36,860 nt of DNA from a virus. Numbering within the stretch: position 1 is the first letter of the stretch; the number at the start of each line of letters is the position of its first letter. Both the position numbers and the translations under genes were made by a program. Below the pieces are notes generated by a model that was not told the origin of the DNA, did no database searches, and saw only the letters and a list, made by a program, of their open reading frames with translations. Below, one piece after another: positions 35,453 through 36,860 of this stretch. The DNA lies in UHGV virus genome UHGV-1448156, one strand, 5' to 3'.

Positions 35453-36160
35453 ATGGATTTGAATAAATTCGATGAGCCATTCAGCCCTGAAGATATCGAA
35501 TGGCGAATACAGCAAAGCGGTAAAACACGCGATGGCAAGGTGTGGGCTATGGTGCTGGCTTATGTCACGAACCGGGCAATCATGAAACGCCTGGACGATG
35601 TTTGCGGCAAAGCAGGATGGCGCAATGAATACCGCGATATTCCCAACAACGGCGGAGTTGAATGCGGCATATCAATAAAGATTGATTCCGAATGGGTAAC
35701 CAAATGGGATGCTGCTGAAAACACGCAGGTAGAAGCCGTCAAAGGTGGTCGTTCCGGTGCAATGAAGCGCGCTGCCGTTCAATGGGGAATCGGTCGGTAT
35801 CTGTATAACCTTGAGGAAGGTTTCGCACAAACATCTCTCGATAAAAAGCAGGGGTGGCACAGGGCAAAACTGAAGGATGGAACAGGATTTTACTGGCTCC
35901 CTCCATCGCTGCCGGGATGGGCAATCCCAGCATCAGATAACAAACCATCACCAGAAAATACCAACCAGAAATCTCCATCGGTTGACTGCGAACAAATCCT
36001 GAAAGACTTCAGCGATTATGCGTCAACAGAAACTGACAAGAAAAAACTCATCGAGCGTTATCAGCGTGACTGGCAATTAATGGCTGGCAACGAGGAGGCG
36101 CAGGCTAAATGCGTTCAGGTAATGAACATCAGAGTTAACGAACTAAAACAGGCGGCATAA
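35453..36160 (+). CDS. Single-strand annealing protein (Rad52/Sak-like core)
   Basis: 235 aa; SD GAGGTGA; SGAMKRAAVQWGIGRYLYNL resembles the Rad52-family annealing motif; C-terminal tail may be of Erf type (uncertain). Confidence 0.65.
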   Translation: MDLNKFDEPFSPEDIEWRIQQSGKTRDGKVWAMVLAYVTNRAIMKRLDDVCGKAGWRNEYRDIPNNGGVECGISIKIDSEWVTKWDAAENTQVEAVKGGRSGAMKRAAVQWGIGRYLYNLEEGFAQTSLDKKQGWHRAKLKDGTGFYWLPPSLPGWAIPASDNKPSPENTNQKSPSVDCEQILKDFSDYASTETDKKKLIERYQRDWQLMAGNEEAQAKCVQVMNIRVNELKQAA

Positions 36161-36667
36161 ATGGCAAGCAGAGGCGTAAATAAGGTGATTATCCTTGGTC
36201 GGGTAGGACAAGACCCGGAAGTTCGATACTCACCATCAGGAACAGCGTTCGCTAACCTGACAATAGCCACGTCAGAACAATGGCGAGATAAAAATACTGA
36301 CGAGCAAAAGGAATTGACTGAATGGCATCGTGTTGCTGTATCCGGGAAACTGGCTGAGGTCGTGGGGCAGTATGTGAAAAAAGGTGATCAGATTTATTTC
36401 GAGGGAATGCTGAGAACCAGAAAGTGGAAAGACCAGTCAGGGCAAGACCGTTACACAACCGAGGTTCATGTCGGAATTAATGGCGTGATGCAAATGCTTG
36501 GCGGCATTGGCGACAGCAAACAACAAGCAGCCAGCAGGCAATCACAGAAGCCACAGCAGCAATCATCACCAGCACAACACAACGAACCTCCGATGGATTT
36601 TGACGACGATATACCTTTTGCACCAGTAACTCTCCCCTTCCCTCGTCACGCTATTCACGCAATTTAA
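36161..36667 (+). CDS. ssb: Single-stranded DNA-binding protein with 15-aa C-terminal extension
   Basis: [23 protein letters not shown]...TEWHRV...[11 protein letters not shown] closely matches E. coli SSB; the acidic tip DFDDDIPF is followed by [15 protein letters not shown]. Confidence 0.85.
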
Positions 36668-36680
36668 TCAGGAGAAAATC

Positions 36681-36860
36681 ATGCCAGCGCCTCAGTATGG
36701 TGCGGATGACCCGCGCCGCTGTTCCGGCAATTCCGTATCGGAGGTGCTGGATAAATTCAGGAAAAACTACGACCGGATAATGTCGCTACCGCAGGAAACG
36801 AAAGAGGAAAAGGAATTTCGCCATTGTATATGGCTTGCAGAGAAAGAAGAACGCGAGCGA
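36681..36860 (+). CDS. Hypothetical early protein, 5' part only (runs off the window)
   Basis: ATG 36681 with SD AGGAG; MPAPQYGADDPRRCSGNSVSEVLDKFRKNYDRIMS... open to the edge. Confidence 0.4.
   Translation, partial: MPAPQYGADDPRRCSGNSVSEVLDKFRKNYDRIMSLPQETKEEKEFRHCIWLAEKEERER

What the first reader, a model, noticed from the sequence alone, without database searches (positions are those of the whole stretch)
36602..36667. SSB whose conserved acidic C-terminal tip is internal (15-residue extension)
Seen in sequence: the SSB matches E. coli SSB closely through the OB fold and ends its linker with [10 protein letters not shown], but translation continues for [15 protein letters not shown] before TAA. 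Established knowledge: partner proteins bind the free C-terminal Phe carboxylate of the DDDIPF tip. An extension should block these contacts while leaving ssDNA binding intact. Inference: either a deliberate phage variant that sequesters ssDNA away from host repair and replication partners, or a recent loss of the native stop.
Basis: partly seen in the sequence, partly recalled or inferred. Interest (0 to 1): 0.4.

Follow-up and report, generated by a model that had tools for sequence, protein, structure and literature searches.

The report
Phage SSB with capped acidic tip
This prophage's single-stranded-DNA-binding protein carries 15 extra residues after the DDDIPF docking motif that normally ends the protein; the cap is old and conserved, is shared by SSBs of many phages and plasmids, appears undescribed, and its junction is a landing site for homing endonucleases.

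Summary
Window 36161-36667 encodes a 168-aa SSB that aligns with E. coli SSB up to ...[10 protein letters not shown] (residue 153) and then continues [15 protein letters not shown] before the stop.

It is not a recent stop loss. The appendix is exactly 15 residues wherever it was found:
- 111 of the 120 closest homologues;
- 120 of 120 IMG/VR junction hits;
- 20 of 20 genuine hits in species-representative genomes.

Consensus: [AS]-P-[VI]-[TG]-L-x-[FY]-[PG]-[RK]-x-x-[ILV]-[HY]-x-[ILVF]-COOH. Its codons are under purifying selection (dN/dS about 0.14-0.29, synonymous sites saturated), and only the SSB frame stays open.

The cap follows the IPF tip on several unrelated SSB scaffolds: lambdoid prophages, IncN2 plasmids, T1-like, rV5-like and phi92-like phages, and Vibrio phages.

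The tip/cap junction is also a homing-endonuclease site. In Sf6-type phages an HNH gene sits exactly there, so SSB gets a free, recoded tip and the HNH inherits the cap. In rV5-like phages cap plus endonuclease form one indel. The window carries the endonuclease-free allele.

Function is inferred only. Most likely the cap changes which partners dock on the tail. No description was found in the searchable literature.

The parts
35453..36160 (+). Rad52/Erf-like single-strand annealing protein gene (235 aa). Its stop abuts the ssb start.
   Evidence: Pfam Rad52_Rad22 PF04098, E=5e-26. Same gene order as epsilon34, Sf6 and Huey.
36161..36667 (+). ssb ORF, 168 aa plus TAA.
   Evidence: Pfam SSB E=3e-36. 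99% nucleotide identity to the ssb of phages HK75, mEp235 and mEpX2.
36161..36502 (+). OB-fold ssDNA-binding/oligomerisation domain (about residues 1-114).
   Evidence: AlphaFold2 model: strands and one helix up to residue 114 with pLDDT 70-88. Aligns to E. coli SSB OB-domain chains 1eyg and 1sru.
36503..36589 (+). Gln/Pro-rich disordered linker (about residues 115-143).
   Evidence: pLDDT about 30. Length and sequence vary among homologues.
36590..36619 (+). Canonical SSB tip [10 protein letters not shown], here internal (residues 144-153).
   Evidence: Identical to the last 10 residues of E. coli SSB in the alignment. F147, P152 and F153 are invariant in alignment A1.
36620..36664 (+). 15-residue cap [15 protein letters not shown] (residues 154-168). 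This is the feature in question.
   Evidence: Fixed length and motif in 111/120, 120/120 and 20/20 homologous loci. dN/dS 0.14. Only the SSB frame is open. The same 42-45 nt end the HNH ORF in Sf6, Huey and 63 IMG/VR loci.
36619..36620 (+). Phe153|Ala154 codon boundary, the empty homing-endonuclease insertion point.
   Evidence: In Sf6-type alleles the recoded tip, a stop and the HNH gene lie between these two codons; some copies keep all 15 cap residues as ...[19 protein letters not shown]. In rV5-like phages the cap+HEG indel starts right after the Phe codon.
36665..36680 (+). TAA stop and a 13-nt spacer carrying AGGAG, the ribosome-binding site of the next gene.
   Evidence: Sequence. No promoter, terminator or stable RNA fold here.
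36681..36860 (+). 5' part of abc2 (anti-RecBCD); runs off the window end.
   Evidence: Translation MPAPQYGADDPRRCSGNSVSEVLDKF... matches the annotated Abc2 of Sf6, Huey and epsilon34.

Best explanation
The 15 residues are a conserved 'cap' that mobile-element SSBs of gamma-proteobacteria carry directly after the DDDIPF tip. This part is shown: the cap is an ancient, selected peptide module that always follows the tip. The mechanism is inferred. The cap removes the free Phe alpha-carboxylate that the pockets of host SSB-interacting proteins (ExoI, RecQ, chi, PriA, RecO, RecG and others) need, so canonical docking on phage-SSB-coated ssDNA should be weakened. At the same time the still-conserved tip and the conserved cap probably form one longer linear motif for a conserved host factor. 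The expected net effect is that ssDNA coated by the element's SSB is handled by a different set of partners than host-SSB-coated ssDNA. In this prophage that ssDNA sits in a recombination module with a Rad52-like annealing protein and the anti-RecBCD protein Abc2. The module moves between unrelated SSB genes by recombination at the conserved tip-coding DNA, often together with homing endonucleases. The window holds the endonuclease-free allele.
For: - Real and conserved; 111/120 homologues; 120/120 IMG/VR hits; 20/20 genuine GTDB hits. All are exactly 15 aa.
- Selected as a peptide: dN/dS 0.14, or 0.29 on codons the search pattern left free, with dS above 1. At least 12 DNA versions encode the identical [15 protein letters not shown]. 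Only the SSB frame is open in 39/39 variants and it has the lowest pN/pS.
- No RNA, promoter or terminator signal in the cap DNA.
- Portable and tip-linked. The cap sits on classical SSBs, on PF00436 SSBs only 21-27% identical to this one, on a phrog_743 SSB, on IncN2 plasmid SSB, and on T1-like, Phapecoctavirus, Justusliebigvirus, Vequintavirus, Seunavirus and Vibrio-phage SSBs.
- In IMG/VR the cap without a preceding Phe occurs only as the tail of the Sf6-type HNH, 63 of 63.
- Partner is probably host-encoded: flanking genes vary, with 9 upstream and 22 downstream clusters, and the elements carrying the cap are unrelated to each other.
- The tail is disordered, with no predicted intramolecular docking.
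- Carboxylate dependence of partner pockets: PMC10164576, PMC3152348.
Against: - No binding or genetic data exist for any capped SSB. These lambdoid SSBs are stated not to have been studied experimentally (PMC12315714).
- Blocking alone would not require a conserved sequence.
- The tip remains conserved, so it is presumably still used. It could be exposed by processing, which would make the cap a pro-peptide rather than a filter.
- Close relatives with free tips are viable (Sf6, Huey; Bas48/52/56 versus Bas49/50/54), so the cap is not essential.
- No candidate host partner was identified.
- The cap travels with homing endonucleases, so part of its spread could be hitch-hiking.
Confidence: 0.45

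Rival explanations
1. Recent loss of the native stop codon: a neutral or slightly harmful read-through peculiar to this prophage lineage.
For: Close relatives ending at IPF exist: P0008-P0013, and L129, which has a stop and a terminator-like hairpin right after IPF.
Against: Identical 15-codon length in every capped locus found. Synonymous sites are saturated while amino acids are kept. The cap occurs in about 240 of 5426 complete E. coli genomes and in 211 phage records.
Confidence: 0.02
2. Homing-endonuclease baggage: the 45 nt are the 5' arm of a mobile HEG cassette (or its scar after HEG loss). SSB reads through them, and they have no function for SSB.
For: In Vequintavirus the indel is exactly [cap + HEG] inserted after the Phe codon, and the HEG start codon lies inside the cap. 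HNH genes start within the last cap codons in ACG-M12 and Mt1B1_P17. In Sf6-type phages the HNH gene sits at the tip/cap junction. Capped alleles carrying a Huey-type recoded tip (NFDDEIPF-AP...) look like HEG loss. HEG homing at the tip-coding DNA would explain why the cap sits on unrelated scaffolds.
Against: Most capped ssb genes have no adjacent HEG: none of 22 downstream clusters in the lambdoid sample is HEG-like by length or sequence, and W22, Vibrio phages and IncN2 plasmids have none. Yet in those HEG-free lineages the peptide is under purifying selection and never acquires the single stop that would restore a free tip. A harmless HEG needs no cap, because Sf6-type cassettes supply a stop after IPF.
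Confidence: 0.12
3. An added, independent docking motif that leaves the tip functional. One candidate is a beta-clamp-binding-like hexapeptide: P-V-T-L-P-F or P-I-G-L-Q-Y, compared from memory with Hda QLSLPL, Pol II QLGLF and UmuD TFPLF. It could also bind another hub protein.
For: Positions 2-7 of the cap fit x-[VIL]-[STG]-L-x-[FYL] and are its best-conserved part. The tail is disordered, like other linear motifs.
Against: The motif lacks the conserved Gln. The resemblance is recalled, not tested. The cap never occurs away from the tip or with variable spacing, which argues for one composite unit. An internal IPF cannot offer its carboxylate.
Confidence: 0.15
4. Pro-peptide or degron: the cap is clipped after Phe153 to expose a normal tip at the right time, or its hydrophobic basic C-terminus (..RHAIHAI-COOH, compared from memory with the MuA-type ClpX signal RRKKAI) targets the element's SSB for turnover.
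For: This would explain why both tip and cap are conserved, why A/S-P always follows Phe, and why free-tip and capped alleles are interchangeable in sibling phages. An SprT-family protease gene lies next to the capped ssb of IncN2 plasmids, which may be coincidence.
Against: No protease site or degron was tested. No protease gene is linked in the phages. The last residues vary (HAI, YVI, NVI, HCF, HAL).
Confidence: 0.15

Closest known systems
E. coli SSB (PDB 1eqq, 4mz9) and its SSB-Ct tip
   Same: OB fold, disordered linker and the 10-residue tip [10 protein letters not shown]. The alignment runs over residues 1-153 with E=4.6e-57.
   Different: In E. coli the tip is terminal and its alpha-carboxylate is bound by partner pockets (PMC10164576). 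Here 15 conserved residues follow it. Ser replaces the ssDNA-contacting Phe60.
Shigella phage Sf6 gene 27 (SSB) plus gene 26 (HNH), and phage Huey
   Same: Same Rec module (Rad52-like SAP, ssb, abc2). The last 14-15 codons of the HNH gene match the window's cap DNA.
   Different: SSB ends with a free, recoded tip (NFDDSDIPF* or NFDDEIPF*), and an HNH homing-endonuclease gene lies between tip and cap. The window has no HNH gene.
Free-standing homing endonucleases of phages (T4 seg/mob genes, from memory; I-KsaII of Staphylococcus phage K-like polA, seen)
   Same: An HNH gene (phrog_2340) inserted beside or inside a conserved gene. The HEG-containing allele has altered target codons, and presence/absence polymorphism occurs among near-identical phages.
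   Different: Cleavage and homing were not tested. Here the insertion decides whether the SSB tip is free or capped.
Phage HK620 SSB and Sak4
   Same: A phage Rec-module SSB whose last six residues (NDYPPF) are needed to stimulate its cognate annealing protein (PMC5928155). This is a precedent for phage SSB tails that set partner specificity.
   Different: Different SSB family. The HK620 tail is terminal and carries no cap.
T7 gp2.5 acidic C-terminal tail
   Same: A phage SSB tail that mediates protein contacts, ending in a terminal aromatic residue (C-tail role summarised in PMC13402713; terminal residue from memory).
   Different: It is a terminal tail that serves phage-encoded replisome proteins. 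There is no host-type DDDIPF and no appendix.
Vequintavirus SSB-like protein Bas52_0087, the DRT10 trigger
   Same: Phage SSB-like protein with a DDIPF tip, implicated in perturbing SbcB (ExoI)-controlled ssDNA metabolism (bioRxiv 10.64898/2026.04.29.721553). Its orthologues in Bas49, Bas50, Bas54 and rV5 carry a homologous 15-aa cap.
   Different: Two-OB 408-423-aa scaffold. Bas52_0087 itself is the free-tip allele.

Membership tests
Bacterial-type SSB (Pfam PF00436) | OB-fold domain matching the family model above its threshold | tested here: met
   124.1 bits against a cut-off of 26, E=3e-36. PHROG phrog_44, E=8.9e-66. The AF2 model shows an OB-type beta-barrel with one helix.
Bacterial-type SSB (Pfam PF00436) | Disordered linker followed by the acidic tip D-F-D-D-D-I-P-F | tested here: met
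   Residues 115-153; the tip is identical to that of E. coli SSB. pLDDT is below 50 from residue 114 onward.
Bacterial-type SSB (Pfam PF00436) | The tip is the extreme C-terminus, giving a free Phe alpha-carboxylate for partner pockets | tested here: not met
   15 residues follow Phe153 before TAA. Whether the mature protein keeps them cannot be tested here.
Bacterial-type SSB (Pfam PF00436) | ssDNA binding and homotetramer formation | not testable with these tools
   Trp41, Trp55, His56 and Trp89 are invariant in alignment A1; their match to the E. coli ssDNA-binding and tetramer-interface residues is from memory. The Phe60 equivalent is Ser.
Capped-tip SSBs of mobile elements (group defined in this analysis) | Exactly 15 residues after IPF with the motif [AS]-P-[VI]-[TG]-L-x-[FY]-[PG]-[RK]-x-x-[ILV]-[HY]-x-[ILVF]-stop | tested here: met
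   [15 protein letters not shown] is the commonest variant in IMG/VR, 57 of 120. It is also found in HK75, mEp235, epsilon34 and ECP1.
Capped-tip SSBs of mobile elements (group defined in this analysis) | Encoded on a phage or plasmid, not as the chromosomal housekeeping ssb | tested here: met
   The window is a prophage-type region. E. coli genome hits are annotated next to phage anti-RecBCD genes.
HEG-invaded ssb allele (Sf6 genes 27/26 type) | HNH endonuclease ORF between the IPF codon and the cap codons, with a recoded tip plus stop | tested here: not met
   The window has the contiguous [10 protein letters not shown] junction with HEG-minus codon usage. It is the empty-site allele.
Beta-clamp-binding motif (QL[SD]LF / QLxLxL; consensus from memory) | Gln at position 1, then L-x-L-x-[FL] | tested here: inconclusive
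   PVTLPF fits positions 2-6 but has Pro instead of Gln. Compared by eye only; no binding or structure test was possible.
C-terminal ClpX degron, MuA type (from memory) | Basic residues followed by a small-hydrophobic C-terminus recognised by ClpX | not testable with these tools
   ..[12 protein letters not shown] shows a loose resemblance only. The terminal residues vary among homologues.

The most novel reading that the evidence does not exclude
Mobile elements of gamma-proteobacteria carry a dedicated 15-residue tip-cap that reprograms the SSB interaction hub. It would deny host nucleases and helicases their carboxylate-dependent grip on element-coated ssDNA, and would create a composite DDDIPF+cap ligand for a different host factor. 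Homing endonucleases that cut the tip-coding DNA would spread this cap horizontally between unrelated SSB genes, so a selfish nuclease toggles the SSB tip between free and capped states.
Probability: 0.3. Interest if true: 0.75.

Novelty: new variant of a known kind. Interest (0 to 1): 0.6.

Why it matters
The SSB C-terminal tip is the docking point for more than a dozen genome-maintenance enzymes, and a free terminal Phe is regarded as indispensable for that docking. A large, conserved class of phage and plasmid SSBs in which the tip is internal would be one of two things: a natural way to uncouple ssDNA coating from host partner recruitment, or a new composite interaction motif.

This bears on four areas:
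- phage recombination and recombineering;
- plasmid establishment;
- defence systems that sense phage SSBs or depend on ExoI;
- annotation, because the HNH genes next to ssb in lambdoid Rec modules look like homing endonucleases rather than recombination nucleases.

Nature has already supplied matched pairs for experiments: Sf6 or Huey versus HK75 or this prophage, and BASEL phages Bas48/52/56 versus Bas49/50/54.

Tried and rejected
- Stop loss or sequencing error: rejected by the conservation data.
- Cap DNA conserved for a nucleic-acid function or an overlapping gene: rejected. There is no promoter or terminator, the RNA fold is weaker than 194 of 200 shuffles, and the other five frames contain stops or have pN/pS of 0.44-2.0.
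- Cap native to the HNH endonuclease, so that the SSB extension would be a deletion fusion: rejected. The phrog_2340 profile ends at residue 143 of 159. Most HNH homologues elsewhere stop matching by about residue 134-151. The cap also lies upstream of the HEG in lytic phages.
- Cap tied to one phage partner such as the Rad52-like protein: rejected, because neighbours vary.
- Cap docks on the OB fold: no support. AF2 leaves residues 114-168 disordered, and the scaffolds differ.
- phmmer of the 30-aa tail against 1.84 billion cluster representatives gave only 13 hits, mostly fragments. Capped SSBs are represented there by other cluster members, so the search was uninformative.
- Pfam finds no family for the Sf6-type HNH, and the PDB has no relative of the phrog_743 SSB.
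- Literature: a full-text search for 'DIPFAP' found nothing. Papers on phage SSBs and defence systems (Retron-Eco8, Hna) concern other SSBs or their OB folds.
- The text of the DRT10 preprint gives no per-phage data that would compare free-tip with capped Vequintaviruses.

Full report
**1. The observation**

The window ends in a typical lambdoid or P22-like early-left recombination module. It contains a Rad52/Erf-like annealing protein gene (35453-36160, Pfam Rad52_Rad22 E=5e-26), ssb (36161-36667) and the start of abc2 (36681 onward).

The ssb ORF encodes 168 residues. It matches Pfam SSB at E=3e-36. It aligns with full-length E. coli SSB over residues 1-153, ending at ...[10 protein letters not shown] (1eqq_A, E=4.6e-57). 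Residues 154-168, [15 protein letters not shown], follow before TAA.

**2. The extension is not peculiar to this phage**

The gene is 99% identical to the ssb of phages HK75, mEp235 and mEpX2, 89% identical to that of epsilon34 and g341c, and 73% identical to that of ECP1. All of these encode the same appendix.

- Of the 120 best protein homologues (66-100% identity; Escherichia, Salmonella, Klebsiella, Citrobacter, Enterobacter, Kluyvera and others), 111 end with IPF plus 15 residues, 7 end at IPF and 2 are damaged.
All 120 stop exactly 15 codons after Phe, although the last five codons and the stop were not part of the pattern.
- A looser pattern run over one genome per prokaryotic species gave 27 hits. 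Twenty are genuine, all with 15 residues. They come from Enterobacterales genera (Escherichia, Enterobacter, Kluyvera, Lelliottia, Atlantibacter, Trabulsiella, Buttiauxella, Pantoea, Proteus, Providencia, Moellerella and others) plus one assembly labelled Chryseobacterium. The other seven are obvious chance matches.
- About 240 of 5426 complete E. coli genomes carry the tip+cap junction. The listed hits are annotated as ssb next to a phage anti-RecBCD gene.

**3. The cap is selected as a peptide**

The IMG/VR sample contains 39 distinct 45-nt cap sequences. The Nei-Gojobori estimate gives dN/dS = 0.14 over all codons. Restricted to the nine codons the search pattern left free, it is 0.29. dS is above 1 in both cases. 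At least a dozen DNA versions encode the identical [15 protein letters not shown].

Only the SSB frame is open in all 39 variants, and it has the lowest pN/pS: 0.28 against 0.44-2.0 in the other five frames. The region contains no promoter-like or terminator-like site, and its RNA folds worse than shuffled sequence. A recent stop loss, a neutral read-through and a hidden nucleic-acid element are therefore excluded.

**4. The cap always follows the tip, on many scaffolds**

Besides window-type SSBs, the same tip+cap ends several other kinds of SSB:
- PF00436 SSBs only 21-27% identical to the window's OB domain (MAINTITVSGN...);
- a 250-aa SSB of another PHROG family (phrog_743), with no Pfam or PDB match, in IMG/VR locus L045 and, as near-identical tails on 252-264-aa ORFs, in Pantoea, Trabulsiella and Apirhabdus;
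- the SSB of conjugative IncN2 plasmids such as pNDM-ECS01 (..[23 protein letters not shown]);
- an 85-kb Salmonella plasmid.

It is also present in virulent phages:
- T1-like ACG-M12 (..FEDDIPFAPIGLQYGMSNIYVL);
- Phapecoctavirus Mt1B1_P17;
- Justusliebigvirus W22;
- Vequintavirus (rV5, 366V: ..[20 protein letters not shown]);
- Seunavirus NINP13076;
- Vibrio phages BT-1011 and 511E55-1 (..[21 protein letters not shown]).

A 30-residue tip+cap query covers at least 80% of its length in 211 phage records. The general motif is IPF-[AS]-P-[VI]-[TG]-L-x-[FY]-[PG]-[RK]-x-x-[ILV]-[HY]-x-[ILVF]-COOH.

The tip itself stays nearly invariant in capped proteins, with synonymous variation. Flanking genes differ widely, with nine upstream and 22 downstream clusters among the lambdoid loci. 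AlphaFold2 models the OB fold and leaves residues 114-168 disordered.

**5. Link to homing endonucleases**

In Sf6, Huey, IME10, N7 and related prophages, SSB ends with a free tip that is recoded: ATGAACTTCGACGAT... encoding NFDDSDIPF* or NFDDEIPF*, against ATGGATTTTGACGACGATATACCTTTT in the window. A 155-159-aa HNH gene follows, and its last 14-15 residues are the cap, encoded by the same DNA as in the window.

A complete IMG/VR scan for the cap not preceded by Phe found 63 loci. All 63 are this HNH gene. In the 57 cases where the upstream ssb could be read, it ended in a free recoded tip. Some copies keep all 15 residues (...[19 protein letters not shown]), which places the insertion exactly at the Phe|Ala codon boundary.

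The cap is not native to the nuclease:
- the phrog_2340 profile ends at residue 143 of 159;
- most of the 559 phage records with homologues stop matching by about residue 134-151. These include I-KsaII-type intron endonucleases of Staphylococcus phages.

In Vequintavirus, near-identical phages differ by one indel. Bas48, Bas52 and Bas56 have ...DDIPF-TAA. Bas49, Bas50, Bas54 and rV5 have ...DDIPF, then the 45-nt cap, then a 207-aa 'homing endonuclease' whose ATG lies inside the cap in another frame, then the same downstream DNA. In ACG-M12 and Mt1B1_P17 an HNH gene of the Sf6 type starts within the last cap codons.

The tip-coding DNA is the only DNA shared by these otherwise unrelated ssb genes. 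It therefore appears to be a homing site, and cap and nuclease can move together. Capped alleles that carry the Huey-type recoded tip (NFDDEIPF-AP...) suggest that the nuclease is sometimes lost again. The window has HEG-minus codons and a contiguous junction, so it is the empty-site allele. Endonuclease activity and homing are inferred from these patterns and were not tested.

**6. What the cap does**

No tool here can test function. The following is established: partner pockets bury the terminal Phe and anchor its alpha-carboxyl group with a basic lip, and removing that Phe abolishes binding and is lethal in E. coli (PMC10164576; RecO Arg132 in PMC3152348).

Three observations argue that the cap is more than a plug:
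- the tip remains conserved;
- the cap's own sequence is conserved, although any residues would block the pocket;
- tip and cap never separate.

My preferred reading (confidence about 0.45) is a partner-reprogramming module. It would weaken carboxylate-dependent docking of host enzymes on element-coated ssDNA. It would also present tip plus cap as a longer ligand for a conserved host factor, because the elements carrying it share nothing except their hosts.

Alternatives:
- an independent docking motif, since PVTLPF or PIGLQY resembles a beta-clamp hexapeptide without its Gln (resemblance from memory);
- a pro-peptide or C-terminal degron;
- functionless homing-endonuclease baggage, which is hard to reconcile with purifying selection in HEG-free lineages.

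Sibling phages with free tips are viable, so the cap is not essential.

**7. Comparison with the literature**

A recent survey of lambdoid Rec modules uses HK75 as the prototype of the anti-RecBCD + SSB + annealing-protein class. It states that these SSBs have not been studied experimentally, and it treats the neighbouring HNH genes as probable Rec-module nucleases. In the passages I retrieved it mentions neither the C-terminal appendix nor homing (PMC12315714).

The Sf6 GenBank record only notes that gene 26 shares 14 residues with an 'E. coli SSB'. The HK620 SSB tail is needed for its cognate Sak4 protein (PMC5928155), a precedent for phage-specific tails. The Vequintavirus protein Bas52_0087, a free-tip orthologue of capped proteins, triggers DRT10 in an ExoI-controlled pathway (bioRxiv 10.64898/2026.04.29.721553). 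A full-text search for the junction string found no paper. That library does not cover most subscription journals.

**8. Verdict**

The stop-loss alternative is wrong. The sequestration idea is plausible but unproven, and probably incomplete.

The protein is a bona fide SSB-family member that fails one defining feature, a terminal tip. It belongs to a large group of capped-tip SSBs of mobile elements that appears to be undescribed. I rate it a new variant of a known kind, with interest 0.6.

Noticed in passing
L234 (AlexBoehm/Bas56) 1990-2140 versus L235 (MaxBurger/Bas54) 1990-2790; L238 (Bas52): rV5-like BASEL phages fall into two classes: free-tip SSB-like protein without endonuclease (Bas48/52/56), and capped tip plus a 207-aa homing endonuclease whose start codon lies inside the cap (Bas49/50/54, rV5). 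Bas52_0087, the published DRT10 trigger, is the free-tip form.
   Followed up: partly
L003 1984-2463 (Sf6 gene 26); L002 1978-2445 (Huey); L198 1557-2055 (E. coli N273): The HNH genes next to ssb in lambdoid Rec modules look like homing endonucleases: presence/absence polymorphism, recoded target codons, and a tail borrowed from ssb. A recent survey counts them as Rec-module nucleases. PGAP leaves the gene unannotated in some E. coli prophages.
   Followed up: partly
L164, L165, L186, L194 and L193 (IMG/VR loci): Some Sf6-type HNH copies have Gln in place of the second His of the HHC motif (AHQCDYS). One has a stop just before the borrowed tail. These may be decaying endonucleases.
   Followed up: no
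L195 2006-3354 (IncN2 plasmid pNDM-ECS01): The capped ssb of IncN2 plasmids lies beside a convergent SprT-family zinc metalloprotease gene and antirestriction genes. Whether the protease relates to the cap is unknown.
   Followed up: no
Proteins P0001, P0006, P0122: P0001 (Salmonella, 588 member sequences) has the cap cut to 12 residues (..PRHAI). P0006 is frameshifted before the tip. P0122 fuses an unrelated N-terminus to the last 40 residues of this SSB.
   Followed up: no
Protein hits ending ..[19 protein letters not shown][HL]AIHA[IL]: These capped SSBs carry the recoded tip typical of Huey-type endonuclease-containing alleles, as if the endonuclease gene had been precisely lost again.
   Followed up: no
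window 1-25000: The first two thirds of the window are myovirus-type structural genes: 94.6% identity over 72% of that stretch to vB_EcoM-606R2, and also SEN34-like. The SSB region is shared with HK75, mEp235 and P22-like phages. The prophage is therefore a mosaic.
   Followed up: partly
window 36338-36340 (SSB residue 60, Ser): Ser replaces Phe60 of E. coli SSB ([12 protein letters not shown] versus WHRVVLFGKLAE). The Ser that follows it (residue 61) is the consensus in the aligned phage homologues; residue 60 itself is variable among them.
   Followed up: no
L129 3440-3560 (Enterobacter prophage): An SSB with 90% identity to the window's ends at IPF, followed directly by a stop and a hairpin. 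It has neither cap nor endonuclease and follows an AAA_24 (Sak4-type) gene. All three end states therefore exist among close relatives.
   Followed up: partly
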